UHGV virus genome: UHGV-0076060
DNA: 39,918 nt
From: a virus
Reading direction: 5' to 3' (one strand)
Under the pieces are notes generated by a model. It was given only the letters and a program-made list of their open reading frames with translations, was not told the origin of the DNA and made no database searches. Below, one piece after another: positions 1 through 12,950 of the stretch (position 1 is its first letter; the number at the start of each line of letters is the position of its first letter). A program made the translations under genes and the position numbers.

Positions 1-219
1 ATATATCAAACAAAATAACCCTGATTAATGAATTATTACGTTTATCATGTTAACTCATCATTATTACATCATCATTGTAAATAATTAAATTAACTTCCAT
101 AACATTAAAATATGTATTCACTGACGCTTTTTTACATAACGAAGAATTGACCATTTTGTCCTGTTGTGCCTTAATGTAAGTACCGTCCACGGCGTGGGAC
201 ATACTTCAAGGAACCTTTT

Positions 220-411
220 GTGAGTCAGGCAACCAGTATGCGAAAACGACACCGATTTAACAGTCGCATGACCCGTATCGTACTGCTCATCAGCTTTATC
301 TTCTTCTTTGGCCGTTTTATCTACTCGTCCGTCGGTGCCTGGCAGCACCATCAGAGCAAAAAAGAAGCTCAGCAATCCACACTCTCCGTCGAATCACCGG
401 TACAACGTTAG
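220..411 (+). CDS. yfgG: small membrane protein (63 aa), YfgG-like host gene
   Basis: ORF with one hydrophobic helix (IVLLISFIFFFGRFIY) and enterobacterial-style codon third positions; name is from recollection of the E. coli yfgG-yfgH-yfgI neighbourhood, not a search. Alternative starts at 238 or 265. Confidence 0.4.
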   Translation: MSQATSMRKRHRFNSRMTRIVLLISFIFFFGRFIYSSVGAWQHHQSKKEAQQSTLSVESPVQR

Positions 412-712
412 CGGTTACCTTCTCCACTCTCACAGAACATAACGGCACCTCGCTGTCGGATGCTTTTGCTCTTTGAGATTATCAAAGCGGCAGATATTCT
501 TTCATCTTAAATTTTACGTCTTTGTTCTGACTGCAGTTCGGCTGCGAAATAAATACATCATTAATACATATGTTGTGATGATGTATTTTTATAAATTATT
601 CCCCACATGAATTTTAATAAATTTAATCTATTCCTTTATACGCAATACATTTACTTTCCTCTTTTGATGATCTTAAATGTCTTATTTTTCGTAATGTGTA
701 TAACAAGGAATA

Positions 713-1231
713 GTGATGAAATTTAAAAAATGTCTTCTGCCTGTGGCAATGTTAGCGTCATTCACTCTGGCAGGATGCCAGTCAAATGCTGATGATCATG
801 CCGCCGATGTTTATCAAACCGATCAACTGAATACCAAACAAGAAACTAAAACCGTTAATATTATTTCCATTCTTCCCGCAAAAGTTGCCGTAGACAACGC
901 CCAAAATAAACGGAACGCACAAGCCTTCGGCGCGCTTATTGGCGCTGTCGCTGGCGGTGTTATCGGCCACAACGTCGGGTCTGGCAGCAATTCCGGAACG
1001 ACGGCAGGTGCAGTTGGCGGCGGAGCTGTAGGCGCGGCAGCGGGTTCTATGGTGAATGATAAAACCTTAGTGGAAGGTGTTTCTTTAACATATAAGGAAG
1101 GCACCAAAGTGTATACCTCCACCCAGGTGGGTAAAGAGTGCCAGTTTACGACAGGTTTAGCCGTTGTTATTACCACGACGTATAACGAAACGCGTATTCA
1201 GCCAAATACCAAATGTCCTGAAAAGAGCTAA
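713..1231 (+). CDS. yfgH: glycine-zipper outer-membrane lipoprotein (172 aa), YfgH-like
   Basis: Signal peptide with lipobox (LAGC), Gly/Ala-rich glycine-zipper segment; host flank; name from recollection. Confidence 0.6.
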   Translation: MMKFKKCLLPVAMLASFTLAGCQSNADDHAADVYQTDQLNTKQETKTVNIISILPAKVAVDNAQNKRNAQAFGALIGAVAGGVIGHNVGSGSNSGTTAGAVGGGAVGAAAGSMVNDKTLVEGVSLTYKEGTKVYTSTQVGKECQFTTGLAVVITTTYNETRIQPNTKCPEKS

Positions 1232-1246
1232 TAATCAGGAGGAGTC

Positions 1247-1786
1247 ATGAAGAAAGTTTTTCTTTGCGCCATCTTAGCCTCCTTAAGCTATCCGGCTATC
1301 GCCTCATCATTGCAGGATCAACTCTCGGCTGTCGCAGAAGCGGAACAGCAAGGTAAAAATGAAGAGCAAAGGCAGCATGACGAATGGGTCGCGGAGCGCA
1401 ACAGGGAAATCCAGCAAGAGAAGCAACGTCGCGCAAACGCCCAGGCCGCGGCTAATAAAAGAGCGGCAACGGCAGCAGCGAATAAGAAAGCTCGTCAGGA
1501 TAAACTGGACGCCGAAGCCACTGCGGACAAAAAACGCGATCAAAGTTATGAAGATGAGCTACGTAGCTTAGAGATTCAGAAACAAAAACTGGCGCTGGCG
1601 AAAGAAGAAGCCCGCGTTAAGCGCGAAAACGAATTTATCGATCAGGAACTGAAGCACAAAGCTGCGCAAACCGATGTGGTGCAATCTGAAGCTGACGCAA
1701 ACAGAAATATGACTGAAGGCGGTCGCGATCTGATGAAAAGCGTGGGTAAAGCAGAAGAGAATAAATCAGATAGCTGGTTTAACTAA
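1247..1786 (+). CDS. yfgI: secreted coiled-coil protein (179 aa), YfgI-like
   Basis: N-terminal signal peptide, charged Ala/Lys/Glu/Gln-rich coiled-coil body; RBS AGGAGG upstream; followed by terminator. Confidence 0.55.
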   Translation: MKKVFLCAILASLSYPAIASSLQDQLSAVAEAEQQGKNEEQRQHDEWVAERNREIQQEKQRRANAQAAANKRAATAAANKKARQDKLDAEATADKKRDQSYEDELRSLEIQKQKLALAKEEARVKRENEFIDQELKHKAAQTDVVQSEADANRNMTEGGRDLMKSVGKAEENKSDSWFN

Positions 1787-1824
1787 ACGATGTTAGTAAC
1801 TTCAAACCTATAATTCTTTAGGAT

Positions 1825-1857
1825 AAAAAACCCTCTGTAGTAACAGAGGGTTTTGTT
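1825..1857. terminator. bidirectional rho-independent terminator between convergent yfgI and guaA 3' end
   Basis: Hairpin CCCTCTG-tagtaa-CAGAGGG flanked by an A-tract upstream and TTTTGTT downstream. Confidence 0.65.
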
Positions 1858-1878
1858 CATTCATAGTGCAGGGTCAAA

Positions 1879-1893
1879 TCATTCCCACTCAAT
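1879..1893 (-). other. guaA: guaA 3'-terminal remnant (IEWE-stop), candidate prophage attL core
   Basis: Minus strand reads ATT GAG TGG GAA TGA, the C-terminal codons of GMP synthase as I recall them; the reading frame is closed by a stop immediately upstream and phage lysis genes begin about 90 bp away. Confidence 0.5.
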
Positions 1894-1980
1894 TATTTAC
1901 GATACACATAAACAATTGACTGATAACAACTTTCTTCCACATGATTTTCACCGTACCGTTTTATATACCGTCACCGGAAA

Positions 1981-2478
1981 TCAGTGCCACGATTTTTGCT
2001 TCTTCAGTGAATCGTATTGCTGTTCGCAGGATTCTCCTGCAATCCGATACTTTTCAGCCTCAGCTGCTGTTGCGTTGTAAACTCGGTTGCTTTCTTCAAG
2101 CATGTCGGCGAGCACACCGATGACCTTGCTGGCTGGCGTGCCAGTGGGGAAAGATCCGGTATAGTGTTCGGCGAGTCGCTTGGTTTTGTCAAGCTCGGCG
2201 CGCAGGCTGTCAGCAGCGGCATTAGCATGCTCAGCATCAACACGCGCCACATCGATACGGGATTGTGCTTCACGTTCAATTTGTGTTTTCTCCTGATCAC
2301 GTTGTGACCTGGCCTTATCATCAGCCTGTTTCTGATCTTCCTGTGCCTGCGCATACCCGGCGTCGTACTGACGACTGCCGTGTGCATTCCAGGCTACAAC
2401 TCCTGATATGACCAGAACAGCAAGCATCGCCATGATAACCAACTGTTTCCAGTATGCTTTTGCGAATGCCCAGATCAT
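1981..2478 (-). CDS. Rz-like i-spanin (165 aa)
   Basis: N-terminal TM helix then charged coiled-coil periplasmic domain; last gene of lysis cassette; start overlaps endolysin stop. Confidence 0.7.
2004..2252 (-). CDS. Rz1-like o-spanin lipoprotein embedded in Rz in the +1 frame
   Basis: Embedded ORF with signal peptide and lipobox (LLTAC) followed by Pro-rich short mature peptide; classic Rz/Rz1 embedded architecture. Confidence 0.6.
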   Translation of the reverse strand: MWRVLMLSMLMPLLTACAPSLTKPSDSPNTIPDLSPLARQPARSSVCSPTCLKKATEFTTQQQLRLKSIGLQENPANSNTIH

Positions 2479-3104
2479 ACCGCCAGCACCTTACTGGCAG
2501 TGATGTATCGCGCGCGCCGGTCATCAATGCCGTTCCGGCCACCATTGATAAGCAGAGTTACACGTGCAATATCTCCGGTATACTTCATGCAGCCTTTGCT
2601 GGAGAAGAACCAGGCCGCGCTACGAGCCGCGTATTCGTCCTGTGCCAGCAGTTCAGGATTCTCCAGCAGGTCAACTTTCAGACCGTTTCCGCAGTCACGA
2701 TAGTTATTCAAACCGGTAATCTGGATAAGCCCGCGCCCACGGTAATTCCAGCCATCGCCGGGAGCATTGTTACCCATGCGTTTGCTGTATACCAGATTTG
2801 CGATCGCGCGCTGGCGCTCAAGTGGCAATGGTGGTTCACCAGCGCGGCGCCCCAGTGCATTAGCCTGTCCCTGGGTGAGGCGTCCAGTCCGGACAAAGCT
2901 TGCCAGTCCGGTAACGCTGTAGTTGAAATTCTCCTGCAACCTAGTGAACCCCCCAGACTCATGCCCAACTTGAGCAATAAACATTGCCTGATCTTCTGCT
3001 TTGCTGATACCAAACTCTTTCATCGCAGAAGTTATATGCGAGAACCAGCGAGCGGCCAGCGCCTCGCTAATACCAGCAGCTCGCTGGAATTGTTTAATCT
3101 CCAT
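2475..3104 (-). CDS. endolysin, glycoside hydrolase family 19-like (chitinase class I-like lysozyme)
   Basis: 209 aa with motifs [12 protein letters not shown] and [12 protein letters not shown] typical of GH19-type phage endolysins; sits between holins and Rz. Confidence 0.8.
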
Positions 3105-3402
3105 GTTTAGACCTCGTTATTTTGAAAATCTGAACGACGTTACCGCGCGTTTTAATAACCGCAGCAAGCATGACAGCGTTGATAATGACCTCAGATAAAT
3201 CCACAGCCATTGGCGTGCGTAACCAGATTGCATAGACGACACGAACTGGAATACTGGCTGCAGCAACAATCAGGAAATAAGCAAGCCATCCCCCCCATCT
3301 TCGGTGTTGTGAACCGTTACGCCGGAAAGTGACAACGCGAATTGCTATGCCAGTACAAATAACTGCATTGGTGATAAGCAAAAAAAACTCATGCGTTACC
3401 AT
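3094..3402 (-). CDS. holin/antiholin-like small membrane protein (102 aa)
   Basis: Three predicted TM helices, immediately upstream of endolysin with overlapping boundaries. Confidence 0.55.
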
Positions 3403-3805
3403 CGTCTTTTCTCCCCGGAATTAACTCGCGTGGATTATCGGAACGGTGATAGAGCCAGATGCCAATTCGTACTGCGACGATTGCTGACACAAATGCGCCA
3501 GCAGAGAAAACAATCCCTTTCTCGAAAGAGTCCTGCGTGATGGTAGGTATCAGGCTGGCTATGCCGATAAGAATTGATGCTGCTGGTTTGTAGAAAAGAA
3601 GTCCGCAGAGAAAACTAAGCATCGACAAGAGTACGCGACGACGAATTGGGTACTCTACCGCAGAGGTAACAAAAATTACCGCGCCAGCCAAAGCTCCCAA
3701 AGCAACCTCAGGAGGCACTCCTGCTATCACCGCCGCCAGAGAACTCATGCTAAGCCACTGATTTAATGTTTCACTGGTTAGTTGAGCTGACATATTTTCC
3801 ACCAT
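3389..3805 (-). CDS. holin-like multi-TM protein (138 aa)
   Basis: Several hydrophobic helices, charged C-terminus, first gene of lysis cassette; start may be the internal Met (MSAQLT). Confidence 0.55.
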   Translation of the reverse strand: MVENMSAQLTSETLNQWLSMSSLAAVIAGVPPEVALGALAGAVIFVTSAVEYPIRRRVLLSMLSFLCGLLFYKPAASILIGIASLIPTITQDSFEKGIVFSAGAFVSAIVAVRIGIWLYHRSDNPRELIPGRKDDGNA

Positions 3806-4014
3806 TTATATGCATAACGACCCCCTAAATAGTAAAGCATCATGCATGATAAACCATTTATGGTTTTTTGTTACCCTGGCATCGTAAATCCCCTGCCTTT
3901 GATGTCGATAATAAGGCTCGCCTTTTACATAACTCTGAAGAGATTGCAGTACAGAAATTATTTAAAATATAGAGGCTTAGTTGAATTCCGCGCCATCAAA
4001 TGGCGCGGTAGCAG

Positions 4015-4299
4015 TCAAATATAGAAATAAACACCAAAACAAACAGTAACAGGAACAACAAAGTCAAACAGGCTTCCAACATCCCATACGCGCGGATCAA
4101 AACCTCCCCACCACGGCATATTCATACGCTTGCCATGCCCGAACATTTCAATCCAGCGATATTCTGCCTGGGTGTGTTCACGCGCAATGAAGAACGTACA
4201 ACCAGCTATCGCTCCGTAAGCCCAGTTTCCGGTAAAAAGGCCAATCAGTACCTGCGCAGCCACAGCACAAAACGCATGAAGGAAAGGTGTTATATCCAT
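4015..4299 (-). CDS. small polytopic membrane protein (94 aa) immediately downstream of tailspike
   Basis: ORF from ATG at 4299 with strong RBS AAGGAG; 2-3 hydrophobic helices; function unknown. Confidence 0.5.
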   Translation of the reverse strand: MDITPFLHAFCAVAAQVLIGLFTGNWAYGAIAGCTFFIAREHTQAEYRWIEMFGHGKRMNMPWWGGFDPRVWDVGSLFDFVVPVTVCFGVYFYI

Positions 4300-4333
4300 T
4301 ATCGCTCCTTTAACATAAGGATAAATAAACACT

Positions 4334-6649
4334 TCATAAAATAGATTTCGTCTTTGTAACAATAATATCTACAAAATCACCTGCAGATATAGCTGATGGT
4401 ACTGTATCTGCAAGAGTAATCTTTTCTGAAGAGATGTTTTGCACATCTAATAATTTATTTTCAACCCCATCCGTATATACCAATTTGACATCACTGAATG
4501 GAGGGTAATAAGTGACTGTTCCTTGGTATACATATATTTCACTGCCTGAAATTGATTTCACTACATACCTGCCCCTTACAAGATTAATTTTGAGTTCAGA
4601 TAAATCGGTTTTATAACAGGTAATTCCTGAACCAATGTTAGCCATACTAATATCAGTATCACTATAATAAGTAATTGCTTTTCCTTGTTTTAAGGTGAAG
4701 TTATCTTTGCTTTTCCTTGGCAAGGATGTGCTATTTTTGTAATATCTACCAGTTAAGCATAGCCATGAAAATGCAGTATTCGCTACATTACCACCAGAAT
4801 ACACAGCTAAACGAATTGCACTAACTGGAACCCCTTCATTATTAATCCTGATCTTAATGGAAGAAATGTTAGCAACAGTAGCATATCTATGGTTAGATGA
4901 ATCCCATTGCATAGAAGAAGTTATTGCTTCTGTTTGTGAAGTTATGACATTCCCATCTCCATCTAATGCATACAGGTAAATGCGAAACGATGCCGTATCT
5001 GCTGAGAATGTAAACATATCACCATTTCTTACTGGTACATCTCCAGATTCCCATAACAACCCAAAATTCCGCATAAAAGCAAACTTAGAAGAAACTAGGT
5101 GACGGATATTATATAAACCATCTACATCTGTTTGATATGCTAATACACCAACTTCTCCATTGTTGGCACTGGATATAAATGGGGTGTTAGCATTTAAAGA
5201 AAACAATGTTACTTCATCGGATATATTTTCCTGAACATGAAATACTGCATTCCCCTTGCCATTATCAGTTACCTCTACATAAGTGTAAGGTGATGGATTG
5301 TATGGTTCATTTGTATAGTAAGGAGAACTTAACCATGAAGCCTCAATTGAGTTATTCCACGTATATTCACCAAAGTTAATTATCAACTGTTGGTTAGTTG
5401 GGGATGATGGATATCGTTCAAAACGAAACCCGTAGAAGTAATTGTTATCACCTCTTTGAATATCAATTTTACCTGCCCCCTCCATAGTTCCACCATAAAA
5501 CTTATTGTGGTTATGATGATATGGATTATCAGCGAAAATGATATTATTCGTACGATTCAGATAAAAATAGTTTTCATTTATCCATCCGTTCTCAACTCCA
5601 AGAAAATGAATTGTATCGACCTTTTTCAGGTTAAAGGTTGAGTATGCTATTGAATAATCCGTCGATGCCACCGAAGCATTATAATTTGCATATAACTGTA
5701 AGTAGTCGCAACGCTCAATGTTTATATGCTGCCCTTTTGCCCCGATAATACGAATATCCGGTGTCGTTTCAGATGAAATACCAGAATTTCTGATAATCGT
5801 TCCGAAGTTTTGTCTTGGGTTGTTAGGGTTTGATGCATTCCCGCCAAGCAATACCCCTATTCCTGAGTGGGATATGGTAAAAACAGCATTGGTCATTTCG
5901 AGGCTGACATTACGAAGATTTAATGTCTCCGTAATAATAAAATTACCTTCCGCTCGTAATGTTCTGGATGATTCTCGTGCATATTCTGCAGCCAGGATCA
6001 ATGCAGATGTATCATCTGTTATACCATCGCCTTTTGCCCCAAAATCGCGAACACTAACGGTGTCTCTCATCTTATCCTGGAACGTTCGGTATACTGCTCC
6101 AGAACCATACTGAATAAACCAACCAAAACCACCAACAACCCCGGCGATTGCAGCATCGACATAATTACGCATTGAGCGATTATTTACAGCGTCCTGCTCA
6201 AGTGATGGATCTGCAAGGTTAGAAATTTTGTTTTGCTTTGCATCGTAATATTTTGCAAGCAAAGATGGTTTCATCAATGCACGTCTGAACCACCCAAAAC
6301 ATTGCTGGATCAGCATCGTCAGGTAGTCAAAAGCATCTTCATGCACTTCGGGGAAAAATTTTCCCTGATTGCGAAGATCTGTCTCCTGCACTACATCAAG
6401 CACACGATCTATCGTAATTCGCCAGCCAGCAGCAAGCGGAGACGGCAGAACCACTGAACCGCCACTATAAGTGCCCGCCCCAGTTACCGTATAACCGGTA
6501 TCCAGAACCAATTCTGTTACGTTCCCGTTCAGGTCAGACACCTGAACAACCAGGTCTGATTTTCTGAAAATTCGAAAAGTATACGGAAACGATGTCGTAA
6601 CGCCGTTACCTGTGTATTCGTTGTGGTCAACTTCGGTTGAGACCGTCAT
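4334..6649 (-). CDS. tailspike/tail fiber with T7-type N-terminal adaptor domain and beta-helix depolymerase-like body (771 aa)
   Basis: N-terminus (YTGNGVTTSFPYTF...DLVVQV) matches the phage T7 tail-fiber N-terminal pattern; DFGAKGDGITDDT resembles pectate-lyase/beta-helix motifs; C-terminal coding part (4334-5700) is markedly AT-rich. Confidence 0.8.
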   Translation of the reverse strand: MTVSTEVDHNEYTGNGVTTSFPYTFRIFRKSDLVVQVSDLNGNVTELVLDTGYTVTGAGTYSGGSVVLPSPLAAGWRITIDRVLDVVQETDLRNQGKFFPEVHEDAFDYLTMLIQQCFGWFRRALMKPSLLAKYYDAKQNKISNLADPSLEQDAVNNRSMRNYVDAAIAGVVGGFGWFIQYGSGAVYRTFQDKMRDTVSVRDFGAKGDGITDDTSALILAAEYARESSRTLRAEGNFIITETLNLRNVSLEMTNAVFTISHSGIGVLLGGNASNPNNPRQNFGTIIRNSGISSETTPDIRIIGAKGQHINIERCDYLQLYANYNASVASTDYSIAYSTFNLKKVDTIHFLGVENGWINENYFYLNRTNNIIFADNPYHHNHNKFYGGTMEGAGKIDIQRGDNNYFYGFRFERYPSSPTNQQLIINFGEYTWNNSIEASWLSSPYYTNEPYNPSPYTYVEVTDNGKGNAVFHVQENISDEVTLFSLNANTPFISSANNGEVGVLAYQTDVDGLYNIRHLVSSKFAFMRNFGLLWESGDVPVRNGDMFTFSADTASFRIYLYALDGDGNVITSQTEAITSSMQWDSSNHRYATVANISSIKIRINNEGVPVSAIRLAVYSGGNVANTAFSWLCLTGRYYKNSTSLPRKSKDNFTLKQGKAITYYSDTDISMANIGSGITCYKTDLSELKINLVRGRYVVKSISGSEIYVYQGTVTYYPPFSDVKLVYTDGVENKLLDVQNISSEKITLADTVPSAISAGDFVDIIVTKTKSIL

Positions 6650-6753
6650 GTTAAATCTCCAGATAGTCGCAGCACCCGTTGCGCCGCATATCTGGTTATT
6701 CTATTACCCAAAAAACCATATATGGATAGAAAGGCTGTGAATATGAATAGATA

Positions 6754-6768
6754 TTACCTTTCAGGTAA
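6754..6768. promoter_or_regulatory. ATTACC-N5-GGTAA operator-like palindrome (copy 1)
   Basis: TTACCtttcaGGTAA; 16 bp identical to the copy at 26545; about 105 bp upstream of the tailspike start. Confidence 0.5.
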
Positions 6769-6805
6769 TTTGCAAAACGTGCTGGATAGCAAACAAATTA
6801 TTTGC

Positions 6806-6825
6806 TACTGTATAAATATACAGTT
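6806..6825 (+). promoter_or_regulatory. LexA (SOS) box overlapping promoter of downstream small gene
   Basis: TACTGTATAAATATACAGTT fits the CTGT-N8-ACAG consensus with AT-rich spacer; overlaps a TATAAAT -10-like element 20-40 bp upstream of the ORF. Confidence 0.7.
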
Positions 6826-6845
6826 ATTGCATGGAGAAGATTAAG

Positions 6846-7103
6846 ATGCAGCAGTATCACTATCCACTGGAAGACGGATTTACCGAAAGGATTCACACGC
6901 CGGGAGGCGTCAGGTCACTGGTGGAGGGATCGCACTTGATGAAATTACTCCGGGATCTCGATAAGGATGGATTTAATGTCGATGGCCCACTTGCTGAACT
7001 GACTGCACTGATTAACTACGTCACCAGCTCACAGATGTCTATGCGGGATCTGCAAACACATCTCGACTATTGTGCCGAACAATTACGAAAACAAACCACA
7101 TAA
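6846..7103 (+). CDS. small SOS-controlled protein (85 aa), putative antirepressor
   Basis: RBS GGAGAAG before ATG at 6846; about 44% identity over ~45 aa to the C-terminal domain of the Bro-N protein at 8252..8947; preceded by LexA box. Confidence 0.6.
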   Translation: MQQYHYPLEDGFTERIHTPGGVRSLVEGSHLMKLLRDLDKDGFNVDGPLAELTALINYVTSSQMSMRDLQTHLDYCAEQLRKQTT

Positions 7104-7126
7104 AAAAAAAGGCCGCAAGAGCGGCC
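7102..7126. terminator. bidirectional terminator between convergent genes
   Basis: Hairpin GGCCGC-aaga-GCGGCC with A9 tract on one side and T-rich run on the other. Confidence 0.65.
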
Positions 7127-7854
7127 TATCGTTTCGCTTTGTGCTCGTCCCAGCACGTTTTGCACCATGCCATTAAGCCGTCCGCATTTTGATTATTAGA
7201 GTAAAAGCTGGTGCGTTTTCTGCGGACATTACAAATTGGGCACCACTTCATATGGCGTGTATTCTTTGGGCCATCGAGACACCTTGCACACCACTTAGTC
7301 AATCCATCTGGATTTTTTGACGATTTCCTGAATTTTTCATATGGAAGGTTTATTCTGCATCGCAAACACTGCTTACTACCACTTGAAACTCTGTTAGCTG
7401 ATTCTTCTTGTGATGGCGATACAGAAGGTATTCTTGCTGGCTCAGATACTACCTGAGGAGCTTTTTTAGGTAACTGAGACGATATGTCATCACCTGGGAA
7501 TCTGTCATGATATGCCGGACGCGTTGACACTCCAGGTGGAAGCTCTGCTGTAAATGGCTTTGGCTGAATCAGCGCCCTCTCTTTTGCTGACTCCTGTTGT
7601 TTATAATATGTCTGGATTACCGATATATCATAAGCAGGATGTACTGAAATATCCGGCGCATTACCTCCAGTTTTTTGAAACTGAGTGGAGGTGTGGTCTA
7701 TCACCTGTGTACGATTAATCGTTATTTCTCCATCTTCGGTCTTTATCGTTTTGCGATGATTAACGACTGTGCGATCAGAGACCTTAGTCCTGTTCTGGTT
7801 GATAACGTAAATAATCACCGTAACAACACCAACAACTATCCAGAAAACTTCCAT
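7126..7854 (-). CDS. membrane-anchored protein with tandem C-terminal CxxC...CxxC zinc-ribbon repeats (242 aa)
   Basis: N-terminal TM helix (VFWIVVGVVTVIIYVI), Pro/Ser-rich linker, two repeats of C-x2-C-x(17-19)-DGL-x3-WC-x2-C. Confidence 0.6.
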   Translation of the reverse strand: MEVFWIVVGVVTVIIYVINQNRTKVSDRTVVNHRKTIKTEDGEITINRTQVIDHTSTQFQKTGGNAPDISVHPAYDISVIQTYYKQQESAKERALIQPKPFTAELPPGVSTRPAYHDRFPGDDISSQLPKKAPQVVSEPARIPSVSPSQEESANRVSSGSKQCLRCRINLPYEKFRKSSKNPDGLTKWCARCLDGPKNTRHMKWCPICNVRRKRTSFYSNNQNADGLMAWCKTCWDEHKAKR

Positions 7855-7874
7855 TGCTTTTCCTCACAATAACA

Positions 7875-7889
7875 TTACCTTAAAGGTAA
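7875..7889. promoter_or_regulatory. ATTACC-N5-GGTAAT operator-like palindrome (copy 2)
   Basis: TTACCttaaaGGTAA about 20 bp upstream of the 7854 start codon. Confidence 0.5.
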
Positions 7890-7967
7890 TATCTTGCTTT
7901 CAGGTGATCAAGCGTTAAACGCAATCAACCAAATACGGTTGATTTTAATATTTCTCCGCGTTTATCA

Positions 7968-7982
7968 TTACCTTTTCGGTAA
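7968..7982. promoter_or_regulatory. ATTACC-N5-GGTAA operator-like palindrome (copy 3)
   Basis: TTACCttttcGGTAA, adjacent to a TTTACA -35-like hexamer. Confidence 0.45.
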
Positions 7983-8019
7983 ATTTACATCGCACTCATC
8001 TTGTGCCATAGTAATCGGG

Positions 8020-8096
8020 CACTGGCAAAATCCAGTGCCGGGATTGGCGTCCCGGATTACTAAAAGGCGCATTCACCGCGCAAGCGGTTTTTTTAT
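8020..8096 (+). ncRNA. candidate small RNA (about 75 nt) ending in an intrinsic terminator
   Basis: No plausible ORF; possible promoter (TTTACA...TAGTAAT) upstream; two internal hairpins (GGCACTGG/CCAGTGCC and CCGGGA/TCCCGG) and terminal hairpin ACCGC-gcaa-GCGGT plus T7 tract at 8075-8096. Confidence 0.3.
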
Positions 8097-8251
8097 GCGT
8101 ATAGCACGGCCACATTCGTATTATGGTGGGCTGTGTGGGGGCACCGAAAGGTGCGCCGGGTCCTTTTAGCCGGTTACGCCAACCCTGCACAGTTCACCAC
8201 CAACCGATTGGCGTCGGTAGTGGTGATTGACCAGACTAAAAGGTAACCACT

Positions 8252-8947
8252 ATGACAGCTACAAAAAGCACGTCCATTTTTTCTTTCGAATCCCAAGCCG
8301 ATATACGAGTAATCGTCATTAATGGTGAGCCATGGTTTATCGCTTCAGATGTTTGTCGGGCTATAGGCATAGCAAACCATCGAGATGCTGTTCGAAAACT
8401 TGATGATGATGAGAAGGGCGTCGCTTCAACCGACACCCCTGGCGGTGAGCAAGAATCGATCATCATCTCCGAGTCAGGCCTCTACACACTGATCCTCCGC
8501 TGCCGCGACGCAGTGACACCAGGCACTATCCCCTACCGCTTTCGTAAATGGGTTACAGGTGAGGTTCTTCCTCAGATCCGCCGCACCGGAAGTTACATTA
8601 AAAACTCGCTCCCGCAGGAAGAACGCATAAAGATGGTTGCCGACCAGGTTGCAAACGCCACAGCATCAGCAGTGATGCAGGCGATGAAGATAGAGAACAA
8701 AACCTACAGTGCCCCACTGAAGCCCGGCTACCGTAGCCTGATTCATTCGCCGTCTGGTGTTCTCGGCCTGACGGAGAACTCACTGCTGATGAATCTGCTG
8801 AACCAGTTACAGGAAGACGGGCACGATGTATCGGGAGCGGCGGCGGAGCTGACCACCATGTTCTGCTACATCGTCGGTGTGAGCAAATGCCTGCGTGATA
8901 TCCAGACCCACGCGGAGTACATCAACGACAAGGCAGGGTTCTTCTGA
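8252..8947 (+). CDS. Bro-N domain protein, antirepressor-like (231 aa)
   Basis: N-terminal Bro-N/KilA-N-like sequence (FESQADIRVIVINGEPWFIASDVCRAIG...FRKWVTGEVLPQIRRTG); C-terminal domain homologous to the 85-aa protein at 6846..7103. Confidence 0.75.
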   Translation: MTATKSTSIFSFESQADIRVIVINGEPWFIASDVCRAIGIANHRDAVRKLDDDEKGVASTDTPGGEQESIIISESGLYTLILRCRDAVTPGTIPYRFRKWVTGEVLPQIRRTGSYIKNSLPQEERIKMVADQVANATASAVMQAMKIENKTYSAPLKPGYRSLIHSPSGVLGLTENSLLMNLLNQLQEDGHDVSGAAAELTTMFCYIVGVSKCLRDIQTHAEYINDKAGFF

Positions 8948-9116
8948 CGGGCGGCGGCACAGGGATGTGCCTTTAAATAATTCTGTACAGATTGCAGGTG
9001 AATAGCTTACTATTACCTCACGGGTGATCCATAGCGATTAGGCACCGATACAGGAGGAGCCCACATGAGAAAATTTGACGAGTACGAAGGCGTTTAACAT
9101 TCGGATAGTTTAATGA

Positions 9117-9140
9117 CGGGGCCATTAGGCCCCGTTTTCA
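9117..9140 (+). terminator. intrinsic terminator / attenuator-like hairpin upstream of 9157 gene
   Basis: CGGGGCC-atta-GGCCCCG followed by TTTTCA; preceded by a 10-codon ORF with AGGAGG RBS (9065..9097). Confidence 0.5.
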
Positions 9141-9156
9141 TGTCTGGAGACAGTTT

Positions 9157-9696
9157 GTGTTAAGTGAAGAAATGCAATTTGCCATGGCTGTGGCTCAAAT
9201 CGTAAGTGCAGTCGCGGTTTCGCTTGGCTTGTTCATAGCTATCGCTACTATTATTTATAATGTAAATACAGCGAGAAAAGTACACACTTCAGTATTCCTT
9301 GGTGAAAGCAGGTTTGATGTAGATTATAAGAAAGGCCTATCTACTATGCGCCGCATTCACGAATCGAACAAATCATTCCGCTCTTATATGTATCCAAGCA
9401 ATGGACAGGCTGATCTTACGGATGAAGAAAAGACAGAGAAGAGAGAAATAATTTACTGTCTAGGTTTCTACGAACGCATGGCTGTGAGCGTGAAGCGGAA
9501 AACTTATGATGAGACAATGATTAAGGAAGTATTTTACAGCTCCGTTGTAAATAACTATCAGATTGCGCTACCTCTTATACAAGCCATTAGAGAAAAAGAA
9601 AACATAAACACATATTTTAAAGAATATGAATGGTTGGCCACACGATGGAAGGATTGTCCATTGAAGGATAAATCCCCGTGGTACAAGTTTTGGTAA
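9157..9696 (+). CDS. N-terminally membrane-anchored protein of unknown function (179 aa), AT-rich moron
   Basis: GTG start with GGAGA RBS (alternative ATG at 9172); one N-terminal TM helix; low GC; flanked by terminators. Confidence 0.6.
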   Translation: MLSEEMQFAMAVAQIVSAVAVSLGLFIAIATIIYNVNTARKVHTSVFLGESRFDVDYKKGLSTMRRIHESNKSFRSYMYPSNGQADLTDEEKTEKREIIYCLGFYERMAVSVKRKTYDETMIKEVFYSSVVNNYQIALPLIQAIREKENINTYFKEYEWLATRWKDCPLKDKSPWYKFW

Positions 9697-9722
9697 GCCC
9701 GCGCTGCGGGCTTTTTTGTGGA
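9697..9722 (+). terminator. intrinsic terminator
   Basis: GCCCGC-gct-GCGGGC followed by TTTTTTGT immediately after the stop codon. Confidence 0.7.
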
Positions 9723-9789
9723 CGAAACAAAAGTCAGTGCTACACTCATTGACGCCACATTGAGGTGGCTTATAGATGGAAATTTCACA

Positions 9790-9951
9790 ATGAAAAAAGC
9801 ATTTGCTGCACTGTTCGTTTTGTTGTCTCTGGTAGCTTCAACTCAGGCCTTTGCCGGTCGTTGTCAGCACGACAGCGATACTGCCGCTGACGGCTCCCGC
9901 TGCGGTGGGCGTTCTGCGGATTCCCGCCCGGGTGGCGGTGGCATTCGTTAA
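9790..9951 (+). CDS. small secreted peptide (53 aa precursor, about 31 aa mature, 2 Cys, Gly-rich)
   Basis: ATG at 9790 gives MKKAFAALFVLLSLVASTQAFA signal peptide then GRCQHDSDTAADGSRCGGRSADSRPGGGGIR; own promoter-like TTGACG upstream; weak RBS. Confidence 0.45.
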   Translation: MKKAFAALFVLLSLVASTQAFAGRCQHDSDTAADGSRCGGRSADSRPGGGGIR

Positions 9952-9957
9952 AAACAA

Positions 9958-9973
9958 GGCCGCGAAAGCGGCC
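9958..9973. terminator. GC hairpin with GAAA loop; terminator for minus-strand gene 9983..10339
   Basis: GGCCGC-gaaa-GCGGCC; on the minus strand followed by TTGTTTTTA. Confidence 0.6.
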
Positions 9974-9974
9974 T

Positions 9975-9986
9975 GTGACATGTCAC
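9975..9986. repeat. 12-bp perfect palindrome GTGACATGTCAC (copy 1 of 3)
   Basis: Exact 12-mer also at 27581..27592 and 29846..29857; overlaps stop codon of the minus-strand gene. Confidence 0.7.
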
Positions 9987-10339
9987 GTCCCTTTTCTGAA
10001 TGATAGCCATTCGAAAAATGATGACATTCCACCGCAGACAATAGCAAAGATGATCCCACCAAAGAAGAGAAGGCCAGCCTGCCACCACTCCCACCGCCAT
10101 ACATCCACAGCGCCAACCATACCAACAATCGCTCCAACAAATGGAATATAGCTCACGATGAAAGCAATGGGGGCTGCAATTATCCAGTGCAATCCCCACC
10201 ATGATTCAAGCCCAGCCATAATTGCTGCCAACTGAAAAAGACCAACGACGATATAAACAATGAATCCTATAGCTTGCATGTAGTCACCTAATTTACCCAG
10301 TAAAAATAAGAGGCCTCCCCTCAATAAGGCTTGCAACAA
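9983..10339 (-). CDS. small polytopic membrane protein (98-118 aa)
   Basis: Hydrophobic throughout (3-4 TM); TTG start at 10339 with AGGGAG RBS or ATG at 10279; Trp-rich (WRWEWWQ). Confidence 0.55.
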   Translation of the reverse strand: MLQALLRGGLLFLLGKLGDYMQAIGFIVYIVVGLFQLAAIMAGLESWWGLHWIIAAPIAFIVSYIPFVGAIVGMVGAVDVWRWEWWQAGLLFFGGIIFAIVCGGMSSFFEWLSFRKGT

Positions 10340-10475
10340 GAACTACTCCCTGCACAACAAAGATGAACCAGCAAATAGCTTGAGTCTGAGGGTTAAGAAA
10401 ATATTTGTAGCGGTCAATAAATAACAATCCACCAGAAATTATCACACTCAAAATAATTAAAAACACAACACTTCC

Positions 10476-12950
10476 TTATTGCGGAGTGACATCCTGTGGT
10501 CGCCACCAGTATGTCTGGTTAAACTCTTTCTTCGAACGTTGCTCCATTTTACGCAAATAACCTGGTGAAAAATACTCCTGCATCTGGTTAAAGATCATGT
10601 GATCGAGAGCCGCCTTTAAGTACCAGAGATTCGCACCTGGCATCAGACCTTTCCCCAGCTTAACCAGATCACCACCAGTCTGCTCATTCTTCCCTTCCAC
10701 AGCATTTAACGGTATGCCCTGAGCAATCTTCACTACGTCATCAACCAGACCAGCTACCGGGCCAAGCATCGACGCCAGCGCGCCGCTTCCGTACCTAGTG
10801 TGATCTGACAATAAAAAGTCACCGTAAAGGCCAAGACCACCACCTTTCAGTAGAGCACCAAGCCAAAATTTAGCAGCATCTTCTCCTGTCATCTCGCGAG
10901 GATTACGACCAGACGCAAGGTCGTTAAGTTGCTGCGACAAAGCGCCAAGAATGGTCGTACTGGCAATAAACGTCGCAATATATGCCGCACGCCCACCAGC
11001 CGACGGCATACCCATAGCGCGTGACCAGTGACGCATAACCACCGAGATAGGGAACGATTTAAACAGGAAAACACTTCTCGTTAATTCACCTTTCCATGTT
11101 CCACGCTGAATACCAGAACCGGTTATCAGTTGCTCACGTGCACCCGGTGTAATAACAGCCATATCAACTTCTTCAGTTACGGCACCGAGCAGTTTACGCA
11201 TTGCCTCAAATTTCACGCGTTCAGGCTCACCAAGATGTTTAACTGCTGAATCAGGGATACGCATAATGCTTTCCGGTGTCAGCATCGTATTATTACCGTT
11301 CCCCCAGTCCTCCTGTTGCGCCAGCTTCCATACGCTCCAGTCTGTGTCAGTAATCCCTTTGCTTTTCAGGATACGAAAATCAGAGTCATCGAGGCTACGA
11401 AGGTCTGGTGTCCGTGACACTACTTCTCCCAGGCTTCCCATCATGGTTACGCCATAGGCGCGCTTGTGCGCATCTGACCATGCTGTAAGCCCACTGGCAC
11501 GCATTACCGCCGTTGCCGCCCAACGAGACACAGACGGCCCCATATTATCCATCGCCCAGCGGTTAACACTGCCAAGTAGAGATTCCATCGCCAGACCAGC
11601 GCGGCGCGCCCGCGCAAGCTCAGTACGGTTCGTTGGGTCCATAGCTTCAAGCTGGTTGCGGAATAACTGGTTCATTGGAAGGTTGGTAACCTTCGCAGAC
11701 AGATACATGGTTCCAAGATCAGAGAACGATGACAGCAACGCGGATCCGAGTCTGCTGGCAACCAGCCAGTTGCGGATATTGTCAGACCATCGCGCGATGT
11801 GCGGATTCGCTACAGGCTGTGTCTTTCCGGAAATAAAGTTGTACAGATTCTCTGTGTTGTTCGCCAGCCGCTCGACTTTACCGGTTTTACTCGGGTTAGC
11901 TGTTGCCGTTTCTGCCTTCACCTGATCAAGAAGAGAGCGGAAAACATGATCGGGGTTTGGGCCATATGTTTCCACCAGTGCAATATCTTTACTGATACCT
12001 TCCAGGTGACCGACCATGATTTCCCATAGAGAGCGATCGCCATAAAGTTGCTGATATTGCAGATAGGAATCTGCATCTTTGAAATGTATCTGTCGTGATG
12101 CATTACCACGGTTAGCACGTGCTCCGGAAATTCGCATTCCGGTGTCAGTAAGCTTATTCAGCCCACCAGTAGCGATCGTGTTATAAGCCTCTCCAAGAAA
12201 TGCAGACAACTCGGCATCGTTCATCAGTTGTCCATCGGCTCGGGTATAATATTTGCGATCCAGCTTACCTATAACATCGCTAACCCATTTATCTTTTGAT
12301 ACCGCCCCAACCTTTTCCATAGAATGATGTTGAGGGATCCCCCAGTTTTCGAGATAGCCAATGTCCCCACCAGCATCATTAAACCGGCGGCGAAGTAGAT
12401 CTGTCACTTCTCTCCACGCCTTAGCACCTTTTCTTGCTTTAGCATTGCCAGTATTTTGCCCTCGCATTTCATATACCAGGTCACGCACGCCCGCTTCATC
12501 TTCAAACAGGCCAAAAAAGCGAGGATCAACTGCTTCAAATGCCTCCTGCAATTGACTCAATGCATAATCACGGGTGGCTTTTGTTCTGGATTCAACAGAG
12601 AGGAAATTCGATTTACCGTCTGCATTAAAAGCAATAGTACGGTTAAGAGCGCCAAGTTTCCCATCAGCCCCTTGATAGCTATTGATAAATTTATCCAATC
12701 TCTGACGTGCGGCTATAGTGAGGGCCACACGACGTTTCTTTAATGCCGCTTCTCGCTGTAATTCTTCAGATGCCAATTGTGCTGCACGATATAGCCGCTC
12801 TGATTCGGAAAGTTGTCTCCACGACATCGGGTCATCACGAGCAATGGAGCGCATATTTCGATAAATGCGGTCTTCAATGTTCTGTATTTCTCGCGCCGTT
12901 AACGTGCGCTGCGCCGCCTGCTGGACCGCTTGTATACATTCCTGTCTCAT
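10476..12950 (-). CDS. internal virion / DNA-ejection protein (824 aa)
   Basis: Large ORF in the run of internal-core genes between tail-tube genes and tailspike; position equivalent to T7 gp15/gp16. Confidence 0.6.
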   Translation of the reverse strand: MRQECIQAVQQAAQRTLTAREIQNIEDRIYRNMRSIARDDPMSWRQLSESERLYRAAQLASEELQREAALKKRRVALTIAARQRLDKFINSYQGADGKLGALNRTIAFNADGKSNFLSVESRTKATRDYALSQLQEAFEAVDPRFFGLFEDEAGVRDLVYEMRGQNTGNAKARKGAKAWREVTDLLRRRFNDAGGDIGYLENWGIPQHHSMEKVGAVSKDKWVSDVIGKLDRKYYTRADGQLMNDAELSAFLGEAYNTIATGGLNKLTDTGMRISGARANRGNASRQIHFKDADSYLQYQQLYGDRSLWEIMVGHLEGISKDIALVETYGPNPDHVFRSLLDQVKAETATANPSKTGKVERLANNTENLYNFISGKTQPVANPHIARWSDNIRNWLVASRLGSALLSSFSDLGTMYLSAKVTNLPMNQLFRNQLEAMDPTNRTELARARRAGLAMESLLGSVNRWAMDNMGPSVSRWAATAVMRASGLTAWSDAHKRAYGVTMMGSLGEVVSRTPDLRSLDDSDFRILKSKGITDTDWSVWKLAQQEDWGNGNNTMLTPESIMRIPDSAVKHLGEPERVKFEAMRKLLGAVTEEVDMAVITPGAREQLITGSGIQRGTWKGELTRSVFLFKSFPISVVMRHWSRAMGMPSAGGRAAYIATFIASTTILGALSQQLNDLASGRNPREMTGEDAAKFWLGALLKGGGLGLYGDFLLSDHTRYGSGALASMLGPVAGLVDDVVKIAQGIPLNAVEGKNEQTGGDLVKLGKGLMPGANLWYLKAALDHMIFNQMQEYFSPGYLRKMEQRSKKEFNQTYWWRPQDVTPQ

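What the first reader, a model, noticed from the sequence alone, without database searches (positions are those of the whole stretch)
4334..6649. Mosaic tailspike with conserved N-terminal adaptor and AT-rich receptor-binding half
The first ~110 residues match the T7-type tail-fiber N-terminal pattern, whereas the distal coding region (4334-5700) is much more AT-rich than the rest of the structural operon. That is consistent with horizontal exchange of the receptor-binding or depolymerase module, which would set host range.
Basis: partly seen in the sequence, partly recalled or inferred. Interest (0 to 1): 0.5.

Follow-up and report, generated by a model that had tools for sequence, protein, structure and literature searches.

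The report
Modular prophage tailspike with swapped receptor module
This is the tailspike gene of an epsilon15/phiV10-like E. coli prophage. Its virion-attachment end is conserved, and its sugar-cutting, host-recognising end is an AT-rich cassette also found on unrelated phages, which is a well-known way for phages to change host range.

Summary
The ORF at 4334-6649 (minus strand, 771 aa) is real and is the tailspike of a Uetakevirus (epsilon15/phiV10-like) prophage integrated next to yfgI.

- **Composition.** Codons 1-203 have GC 0.46 (GC3 0.42). The rest has GC 0.36 (GC3 0.28), against 0.51 (GC3 0.50) for the virion genes. This is the lowest-GC stretch of the whole window.
- **Mosaicism.** The 5' ~610-640 nt are 96-98% identical to other Uetakeviruses, whose genes then diverge completely.
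  - The 3' 1.7 kb recurs at 96-99.5% identity behind a P22-type head-binding domain.
  - It recurs at 91-94% amino-acid identity behind a PF18668 anchor on a contig with an SU10-like portal.
  - Both junctions fall in about 30 nt encoding GAKGDGITDD.
- **Fold.** The module is a confident right-handed beta-helix plus two beta-sandwich domains, like phage depolymerase tailspikes.
The anchor is about 205 residues, not about 110. T7-type homology is below threshold. AT-richness is also seen in an unrelated receptor module.
- **Receptor.** Unknown. Carrier genomes are O166 (enriched), O99, O1, an O1-like type and O17/O77-group.

This is a new, uncharacterised member of a well-described kind.

The parts
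4334..6649 (-). Tailspike (receptor-binding protein) gene, 771 aa
   Evidence: Single intact ORF. PHROG 18162 'tail fiber protein' matches full length with E = 0. The exact protein is already in public databases as 'hypothetical protein', in a cluster of 261 members.
6041..6649 (-). N-terminal virion anchor, aa 1-203: a beta-sandwich (about aa 1-90) plus a helical neck (about aa 100-195)
   Evidence: 96-98% nt identity to Uetakeviruses phiv142-3, ZX5, HEMP4 and EC.W1-9, stopping at gene nt 582-641. Homologous to domains D1-D2 of Carin-1 Dpo31 (PDB 28lx/8ck1), E 4e-35 and 2.8e-39 with a profile. D1 contacts the virion (PMC13317679). GC 0.458, GC3 0.419.
6009..6040 (-). Exchange junction: about 30 nt encoding GAKGDGITDD (aa 204-213), shared by all partners
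   Evidence: Five-way DNA alignment. The window follows phiv142-3 up to ...GATGATAC and follows the P22-like prophage from GGGGCAAAAGGCGATGG... onward. blastn end-points are 6009 and 6040. Protein breakpoints cluster at query residues 188-198 and 203-220.
5180..6061 (-). Right-handed parallel beta-helix (aa about 197-490), the presumed glycan-binding and cleaving domain
4334..5179 (-). C-terminal part (aa 491-771): two beta-sandwich/barrel domains. This is the most AT-rich and most variable part.
4015..4299 (-). Small conserved membrane-protein gene (94 aa) directly downstream: a flank of the cassette, function unknown
   Evidence: AAGGAG Shine-Dalgarno sequence before the ATG. PHROG 1443, unknown function, E 7e-55, and no Pfam match. 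Present after different receptor modules in Uetakeviruses (89.7-97.5% nt) and in some P22-like prophages (92-95% nt over nt 1-240), but absent from others. GC 0.467.

Best explanation
The gene encodes the single tailspike of a temperate epsilon15/phiV10-like podovirus (Uetakevirus). The prophage is integrated beside yfgI in an E. coli chromosome.

**Anchor.** Residues 1 to about 203 are the genus-specific anchor. It consists of a beta-sandwich that docks on the tail and a helical neck.

**Receptor module.** Residues about 204-771 are an exchangeable receptor-binding module. It has a right-handed parallel beta-helix followed by two beta-sandwich domains. It most likely binds and cleaves a surface polysaccharide of the host. 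The best single guess is the O166 O-antigen. This step would bring the tail to the outer membrane and set which strains can be infected.

**Exchange.** The module was acquired by recombination.
- The left crossover lies in about 30 nt encoding the beta-helix cap motif GAKGDGITDD, which many tailspike genes share.
- The right edge lies at or near the start of a small conserved downstream gene.
- The same module circulates between at least three unrelated podovirus backbones in Escherichia.

**What is shown and what is inferred.** Shown here: the composition, the junctions, the distribution of the module and the fold. Inferred: enzymatic activity, the receptor, trimerisation and the role in host range.
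For: **Genome context**
- Window 1877-25000 is about 96-97% identical to Uetakeviruses phiv142-3, HEMP4 and phiV10.
- Window 1-10500 aligns to the AST20 chromosome at 99.4% identity, with the prophage lying next to yfgI.

**Anchor**
- 96-98% nt identity to Uetakevirus tail-fibre 5' ends only.
- The Dpo31 D1-D2 homologue has a solved structure and a known position on the virion.
- Pas et al. 2023 define the Uetakevirus anchor as the first 205 aa (PMC10408124).

**Module exchange**
- Fifteen E. coli genomes carry the 1675-nt module at 96-100% identity. Nine of these genes are annotated 'phage head-binding domain-containing protein'.
- The block shared with a P22-like prophage is window 4060-6040, at 98.9% identity.
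- Pfam confirms PF09008, PF18668 and PF12571 anchors on homologues.
- Breakpoints cluster at aa 188-220, and the junction was aligned base by base.
- A PF18668 variant lies on a contig with an SU10-type portal.

**Composition**
- GC 0.363 and GC3 0.276, against 0.509 and 0.50 for virion genes. This is the global GC minimum of the window.

**Fold**
-.

**Closest tested relative**
- Pasteurella phage PHB02 gp17 (Dep-ORF8) is 31% identical over all 577 aa. Spot tests show it to be a capsule-dependent depolymerase (PMC6090149).

**O166 link**
- Three of the 15 carrier genomes are O166, against 18 of 5426 genomes overall.
- One O166 genome has the module on two different prophages.
Against: - No enzymatic or adsorption data exist for this protein or any close relative.
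- Pfam PF12708 matches only the 24-residue cap motif and falls below its cut-off (20.6 against 27 bits).
- The catalytic residues are only conserved candidates.
- Carrier genomes belong to at least five O-antigen types: O166, O99, O1, an unnamed O1-like cluster, and the O17/O44/O73/O77/O106 group. A simple one-serogroup specificity is therefore not supported.
- AT-richness is not specific evidence for this transfer, because the unrelated phiv142-3 module is just as AT-rich.
- The N-terminal 194 residues of the model are of low confidence.
- The direction and donor of the transfer are unknown.
Confidence: 0.85

Rival explanations
1. The module does not target the O-antigen. It recognises a surface glycan shared by many E. 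coli serogroups, such as colanic acid, enterobacterial common antigen, LPS core or another exopolysaccharide. Alternatively it is polyspecific. Either way it would confer a serogroup-independent host range.
For: Alleles at least 96% identical occur in lysogens with O166, O99, O1, an O1-like type and an O17/O77-group O-antigen locus. Pas et al. describe such multi-serogroup receptor-binding subtypes, including that of Uetakevirus phiv142-3 (PMC10408124). The closest tested relative acts on a capsule, not on an O-antigen (PMC6090149).
Against: O166 is strongly over-represented among carriers: 3 of 15, against 18 of 5426 overall. O166 strains hold three different alleles on two phage backbones. 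O-antigen loci are themselves exchanged, so present-day serotype need not be the serotype that was infected. Only 8 of the 15 carriers were typed.
Confidence: 0.25
2. The AT-richness does not mark foreign origin. It reflects constraints common to beta-helix receptor modules, such as amino-acid composition, slow translation for folding, or a shared AT-rich gene pool. Composition alone therefore says nothing about transfer.
For: The unrelated module of phiv142-3 has GC 0.362 and GC3 0.257. The 20AR0300 allele has 0.368 and 0.283. The copies in P22-like prophages keep 0.36 and 0.27-0.28 on another backbone. The GC change point (window 5728) does not coincide with the homology junction at 6009-6040.
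Against: GC3 drops as much as total GC, so amino-acid composition alone cannot explain it. The ZX5 module is much less AT-rich (0.444 and 0.371). Transfer itself is proven independently by homology. This rival therefore concerns only what the composition means.
Confidence: 0.4
3. The gene has a single origin, and its C-terminal part merely diverged fast under diversifying selection. No exchange took place.
For: Conservation declines along the protein within the family. Identity to P0005 falls gradually from 100% to 40-46%.
Against: Near-identical C-terminal modules (96-99.5% nt) sit on N-termini with no detectable similarity, carrying PF09008 or PF18668. Near-identical N-termini sit on C-termini of other Pfam families: PF12708, PF13884, PF11962, PF12218 and PF13472. 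The break is sharp at the base level.
Confidence: 0.02
4. The protein is a binding-only fibre with no depolymerase activity, or the prophage copy is a non-functional remnant.
Against: The ORF is intact and full length in many genomes. The acidic and histidine residues are invariant down to 31-34% identity. The best structural matches are enzymatically active tailspikes. A distant homologue is active.
Confidence: 0.1

Closest known systems
Receptor-binding proteins of Uetakevirus phages (phiv142-3, vB_EcoP_ZX5, HEMP4, EC.W1-9; anchor defined on phiV10 by Pas et al. 2023)
   Same: Same genus-type genome and same locus, between the antirepressor block and the lysis cassette. The N-terminal roughly 200-213 residues are 96-98% identical at the DNA level.
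   Different: Their receptor modules are unrelated beyond the GAKGDGITDD cap motif. None of the 50,697 deposited phage genomes carries this module above 49% aa identity.
Tailspikes of P22-like (Lederbergvirus-type) E. coli prophages, e.g. WP_439378791.1 (PS_131_S11) and WP_276360395.1 (AST20/AST240)
   Same: Same receptor module from aa about 193-204 to the end, at 96-99.5% nt identity. Some also have the same small downstream gene.
   Different: The N-terminus is the P22 head-binding domain PF09008. The phage backbone and integration sites (torT, dacD) are different.
Dpo31 tailspike of marine podovirus Carin-1 (PDB 28lx, 28mg, 8ck1)
   Same: The N-terminal D1 beta-sandwich and the start of the D2 coiled coil align over residues 1-179, E 4e-35. 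Foldseek reports 46% identity over 123 aligned columns. D1 attaches to the tail (PMC13317679).
   Different: The catalytic and distal domains are unrelated. The host is Cobetia marina.
gp17 / Dep-ORF8 of Pasteurella phage PHB02 (Autographiviridae)
   Same: Homologous over the whole 577-aa module at 31% identity, E 3e-70. It is the annotated tail fibre. It is active as a capsule-type-A-specific depolymerase in spot tests (PMC6090149).
   Different: It has a T7-family anchor and a 968-aa protein. At 31% identity the substrate cannot be transferred to this protein.
Structurally solved beta-helix depolymerase tailspikes (K2-2 TSP 8iqe, DpK2 7lzj, Det7 6f7k, Depo32 7vz3, CBA120 TSP2-4)
   Different: Sequence identity is 9-14%. 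Neither a shared active site nor a shared substrate can be inferred.

Membership tests
Uetakevirus (epsilon15/phiV10-type) tailspike | N-terminal anchor of about 205 aa homologous to that of genus members | tested here: met
   96-98% nt identity over gene nt 1-582/641 to phiv142-3, ZX5, HEMP4 and EC.W1-9. PHROG tail families match residues 1-166/227 with E 1e-97 to 1e-145. The 205-aa definition comes from PMC10408124.
Uetakevirus (epsilon15/phiV10-type) tailspike | Located in a Uetakevirus genome at the conserved position upstream of the holin/endolysin cassette | tested here: met
   Window 1877-25000 is 96-97% identical to Uetakevirus genomes. Gene order matches phiv142-3 and ZX5.
T7 gp17-type tail-fibre N-terminal domain (Pfam PF03906) | Significant match to the PF03906 profile or to T7 gp17 residues 1-150 | tested here: inconclusive
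   PF03906 scores 10.9 bits against a cut-off of 25.2, E 0.37, over residues 135-161 only. A profile against the PDB finds T7 gp17 chains 8dsp and 8e4g collinearly, but at E about 1. hhalign gives 26% probability over a 23-residue motif. A fold comparison was not possible because the N-terminal model is of low confidence.
Pectin-lyase-fold (parallel beta-helix) phage depolymerase tailspikes | Right-handed parallel beta-helix central domain | tested here: met
   [not shown]
Pectin-lyase-fold (parallel beta-helix) phage depolymerase tailspikes | Match above threshold to a curated beta-helix glycosidase or lyase family (e.g. PF12708) | tested here: not met
   PF12708 scores 20.6 bits against a cut-off of 27, and covers only residues 198-221.
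Pectin-lyase-fold (parallel beta-helix) phage depolymerase tailspikes | Catalytic acidic residues in the groove, and polysaccharide cleavage | not testable with these tools
   E359, D374, E390, E411, H379 and H381 are invariant in 21 homologues down to about 33% identity. Activity is shown only for the 31%-identical PHB02 Dep-ORF8.
Pectin-lyase-fold (parallel beta-helix) phage depolymerase tailspikes | Homotrimeric assembly | not tested
   Only monomer models were made.
Serogroup-specific O-antigen receptor-binding subtype (sense of Pas et al. 2023) | All carriers of the subtype belong to one O serogroup | tested here: not met
   Eight carrier genomes were typed from their rfb loci. Three are O166, two are O99, and one each is O1, an unnamed O1-like cluster, and the O17/O44/O73/O77/O106 group.

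The most novel reading that the evidence does not exclude
This receptor module recognises a glycan that is independent of the O serogroup, or several O-antigens. It sits at 96-100% identity in lysogens of at least five O-antigen types and on three phage backbones. It would then be a naturally portable, broad-range E. coli tailspike module whose only characterised relative, at 31% identity, is a capsule depolymerase.
Probability: 0.2. Interest if true: 0.5.

Novelty: new member of a known kind. Interest (0 to 1): 0.3.

Why it matters
Modular exchange of tailspike receptor modules is the accepted way podoviruses change host range, and Uetakeviruses and P22-like phages are textbook cases. The finding therefore does not change understanding.

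Its practical value is narrower:
- It gives a base-level junction for a natural cassette, the GAKGDGITDD-coding 30 nt. The cassette has moved between three phage backbones, which is directly usable for engineering tailspikes or tailocins.
- It identifies an uncharacterised module subtype that is absent from cultured phages. The module has a candidate target (O166, a diarrhoeagenic serogroup) and a puzzling spread across other serogroups.

Tried and rejected
- **T7-type anchor.** Pfam, a profile search against the PDB and hhalign all stayed below significance. The shared IxNLAxxxxxDAV motif also matches a trimeric autotransporter adhesin, 2yo3, so it is not specific to T7.
- **Serogroup assignment from lysogens.** I expected a single O type and found at least five. 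One look-up, strain W46, missed the rfb locus and was dropped.
- **A 'third module' replaced in strain 20AR0300.** The blastn break at window 5169 turned out to be a gradual decline to 40-46% aa identity. This is a divergent allele or an internal recombinant, not an unrelated domain.
- **Co-transfer of the small downstream gene with the module.** Rejected. It is 95% identical to the P22-like copy but 97.5% identical to another Uetakevirus copy, whereas the module itself is 99.5% identical to that P22-like copy.
- **Promoter scan of 3700-7200.** It found no more sites than shuffled sequence: 10 against 11.3 expected.
Full report
**What is there**

The coordinates delimit exactly one intact ORF on the minus strand, 4334..6649, encoding 771 aa. 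The window is a prophage.
- Positions 1877-25000 are 96-97% identical to Uetakevirus genomes: phiv142-3, HEMP4, phiV10 and the O157 typing phages.
- The first 10.5 kb align at 99.4% to the chromosome of E. coli AST20, where the prophage abuts yfgI, yfgH and pdeF.
- The ORF lies between an accessory and antirepressor block (6831-9696) and a small gene followed by the holin, holin, GH19 endolysin and spanin cassette. It is therefore separated from the virion operon, which runs from 10476 upward.
- PHROG 18162 ('tail fiber protein') matches it end to end.
- The exact protein is already in public databases, from E. coli and E. marmotae, named only 'hypothetical protein'.

**Composition**

| Region | GC | GC3 |
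|---|---|---|
| Gene nt 1-609 | 0.458 | 0.419 |
| Gene nt 610-2316 | 0.363 | 0.276 |
| Thirteen virion ORFs | 0.509 | 0.50 (range 0.42-0.60) |

Of all 1675-nt windows in the 39.9 kb (mean 0.486, sd 0.033), the lowest is 0.355 and starts at 4276. The AT-richness is therefore real, extreme for this genome, and present at third codon positions.

The best single change point is at gene nt 922, which is window 5728.

The unrelated receptor module of phiv142-3 is just as AT-rich (0.362 and 0.257), whereas that of ZX5 is not (0.444 and 0.371). Low GC is thus a frequent property of these modules, not a signature of this one event.

**Mosaic structure**

*The 5' end.* Megablast of the gene against 50,697 phage genomes finds only its 5' end: nt 1-641 in phiv142-3 and EC.W1-9 (96%), 1-582 in ZX5 (98%), 1-536 in HEMP4, and shorter stretches in more distant relatives.

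*The 3' end.* The 3' 1675 nt are found in 15 of 5426 complete E. coli genomes at 96-100% identity. Nine of those genes are annotated 'phage head-binding domain-containing protein'.
- In strain PS_131_S11 the gene sits in a P22-like prophage at torT, with DNA ejection and transfer proteins and an Arc repressor.
- That prophage shares window 4060-6040 at 98.9% identity and nothing else.
- Pfam confirms PF09008 (P22 head-binding) on such proteins.
- Pfam finds PF18668 on another set that is 91-94% identical in the module, and PF12571 on a 45%-identical Aeromonas protein.
- One PF18668 variant lies on a 59.7-kb contig with an SU10/P22-type portal and its own lysis cassette.

*The N-terminal module on other partners.* The N-terminal module (57-98% aa identity) is fused to C-termini of many families: PF12708, PF13884, PF11962, PF12218 and PF13472.

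*Breakpoints.* Partners sharing the C-module begin at query residues 188-198. Partners sharing the N-module end at 203-220, or later when they also share the start of a PF12708-type beta-helix.

*The junction, base by base.* The window follows phiv142-3 up to ...GATGATAC. It follows the P22-like gene from GGGGCAAAAGGCGATGGTATAACA... onward. The roughly 30-nt overlap at window 6009-6040 encodes GAKGDGITDD, the cap motif of many beta-helix tailspikes. I infer that this motif serves as a homologous-recombination site.

*The right-hand edge.* Similarity to other Uetakeviruses resumes at window 4296-4300, the start of a 94-aa gene.
- That gene (PHROG 1443, no Pfam match, good Shine-Dalgarno sequence) follows different receptor modules in Uetakeviruses and some P22-like prophages.
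- It is not more similar to the P22-like copy (95%) than to another Uetakevirus copy (97.5%).
- It is therefore a conserved flank and not part of the cargo.

*Within the module.* There is further recombination or divergence inside the module. The 20AR0300-type allele is 100% identical to about aa 300 and then declines to 40-46%.

**What the parts are**

*Anchor.* The N-terminal 179 residues are homologous to domains D1-D2 of Dpo31, the tailspike of marine podovirus Carin-1: E 4e-35 with the single sequence and 2.8e-39 with a profile. Foldseek reports 46% identity over 123 aligned columns to the cryo-EM chain 8ck1_B. In that structure D1 is a beta-sandwich (residues 8-87) attached to the virion, and D2 is a coiled coil (PMC13317679). 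The secondary structure predicted here (strands to about aa 82, helices at 104-170) fits this, but the model is of low confidence in that region.

*The 'T7-type' label.* It is not established.
- PF03906 is far below its cut-off.
- A profile search finds T7 gp17 N-terminal chains collinearly, but at E about 1.
- hhalign gives 26% probability over a 23-residue motif that also occurs in a trimeric autotransporter adhesin.

*Beta-helix.* Residues about 197-490 are predicted with pLDDT about 90-97 as a right-handed parallel beta-helix.
- The best Foldseek matches are phage depolymerase tailspikes: K2-2 TSP, DpK2, Det7, Depo32 and the CBA120 TSPs, at probability 1.0.
- Sequence identity to these is 9-16%, so neither substrate nor mechanism can be read off.
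- In 21 homologues down to about 33% identity, E359, D374, E390, E411, H379 and H381 are invariant. They lie in the motifs WINEN, YxHNHN, GTMEG and RFER. These are candidate catalytic or ligand-binding residues.

*Family size.* Among 1.84 billion cluster representatives, 569 match at E of 1e-3 or better and 95 at E of 1e-30 or better. Only about a dozen match over the full length.

*Presence in cultured phages.* No deposited phage carries the module above 49% identity. The nearest are Vectrevirus genomes at 49% and T7-like Pasteurella phages at 31% over the full length. One of the latter, PHB02 gp17 (Dep-ORF8), produces capsule-dependent, type-A-specific clearing as a purified protein (PMC6090149). 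It is the closest experimentally tested relative.

**Receptor**

Pas et al. (PMC10408124) show that Uetakevirus and Lederbergvirus receptor modules usually track the O serogroup of the lysogen, with exceptions.

| Strain(s) | O-antigen type |
|---|---|
| AST20, AST240, JNE070796 | O166 |
| E-1246, fS10a | O99 |
| PS_131_S11 | O17/O44/O73/O77/O106 group |
| MS14385 | O1 |
| 100117 | unnamed cluster with the O1 gene order |

- O166 is rare overall (18 of 5426 genomes) yet accounts for 3 of the 15 carriers.
- O166 strains hold three alleles (100%, 97.9% and 96.2% identity) on two backbones.
- AST20 alone has the module twice: in the Uetakevirus prophage and in a defective P22-like prophage at torT.
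- O166 O-antigen is therefore the best single guess, but a one-serogroup specificity is not supported. A shared or multiple receptor remains open, as does O-antigen replacement after lysogenisation.

**Verdict**

The interpretation, a conserved adaptor plus a horizontally exchanged depolymerase-like receptor module, is supported by direct evidence.

The phenomenon is well known (PMC10408124). What is specific here:
- an uncharacterised module subtype that is absent from cultured phages;
- its presence on three podovirus backbones;
- a precisely mapped junction;
- an unexpectedly mixed serogroup distribution.

I rate it a new member of a known kind, of modest interest.

Noticed in passing
L016:19624-21774 (NZ_AP043617.1 1,234,624-1,236,774) and L001:5360-7675: E. 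coli AST20 (O166) carries the same receptor-module subtype on two unrelated prophages. One is the Uetakevirus prophage at yfgI. The other is a P22-like prophage at torT whose portal gene is split by an IS3 element. The identical P22-like tailspike protein (WP_276360395.1) is also in AST240. Co-resident copies are an obvious substrate for the exchange.
   Followed up: partly
window 4015-4299 (-): A 94-aa hydrophobic protein (PHROG 1443, no Pfam match, strong AAGGAG ribosome-binding site) lies directly after the tailspike. Its 90% cluster has 1603 members. It follows different receptor modules in Uetakeviruses and some P22-like prophages, but is absent from ZX5 and from the AST20/AST240 P22-like prophages. 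Its position is where these phages often carry O-antigen-modifying or exclusion genes. Its function is unknown.
   Followed up: partly
window 3985-4012 (-): The GC-rich hairpin CGCGCCATTTGATGGCGCG lies just after the stop codon of the small gene. It has no T-run and was not called by the terminator scan.
   Followed up: no
window 6831-7103 (+) and 8252-8947 (+): The 90-aa ORF upstream of the tailspike belongs to the same PHROG (450/15539) as the C-terminal third of the 231-aa BRO-N/Ant antirepressor 1.2 kb away. This looks like a partial duplicate of the antirepressor C-terminal domain.
   Followed up: no
window 7126-7854 (-): A 242-aa ORF (PHROG 6762, unknown function). Its C-terminal roughly 45 residues hit endonuclease VII, HNH and Lar-like zinc-ribbon families (E 1e-10 to 1e-5). 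A strong terminator-like hairpin follows at 7110-7127.
   Followed up: no
window 1-1880: The left end of the window is host chromosome, not phage. ORF 1247-1786 maps onto the annotated yfgI of AST20, and similarity to phage genomes begins at about 1877. One prophage boundary therefore lies at about 1877-1980.
   Followed up: partly
window 4334-5750 (aa about 300-771), compared with P0005 / L005:4360-6660: The allele in strain 20AR0300 is 96-100% identical through aa about 300. Identity then falls smoothly to 40-46% in the C-terminal domains. This suggests a second, internal recombination zone within the beta-helix between related module subtypes.
   Followed up: partly
L017:777-3050 (Logan SRR6474912 contig): A PF18668-anchored protein 91% identical in the receptor module lies beside a lysis cassette and an SU10/P22-type portal on a 59.7-kb contig. 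This is a third, probably lytic, podovirus backbone for the same module.
   Followed up: partly
[not shown]
   Followed up: no
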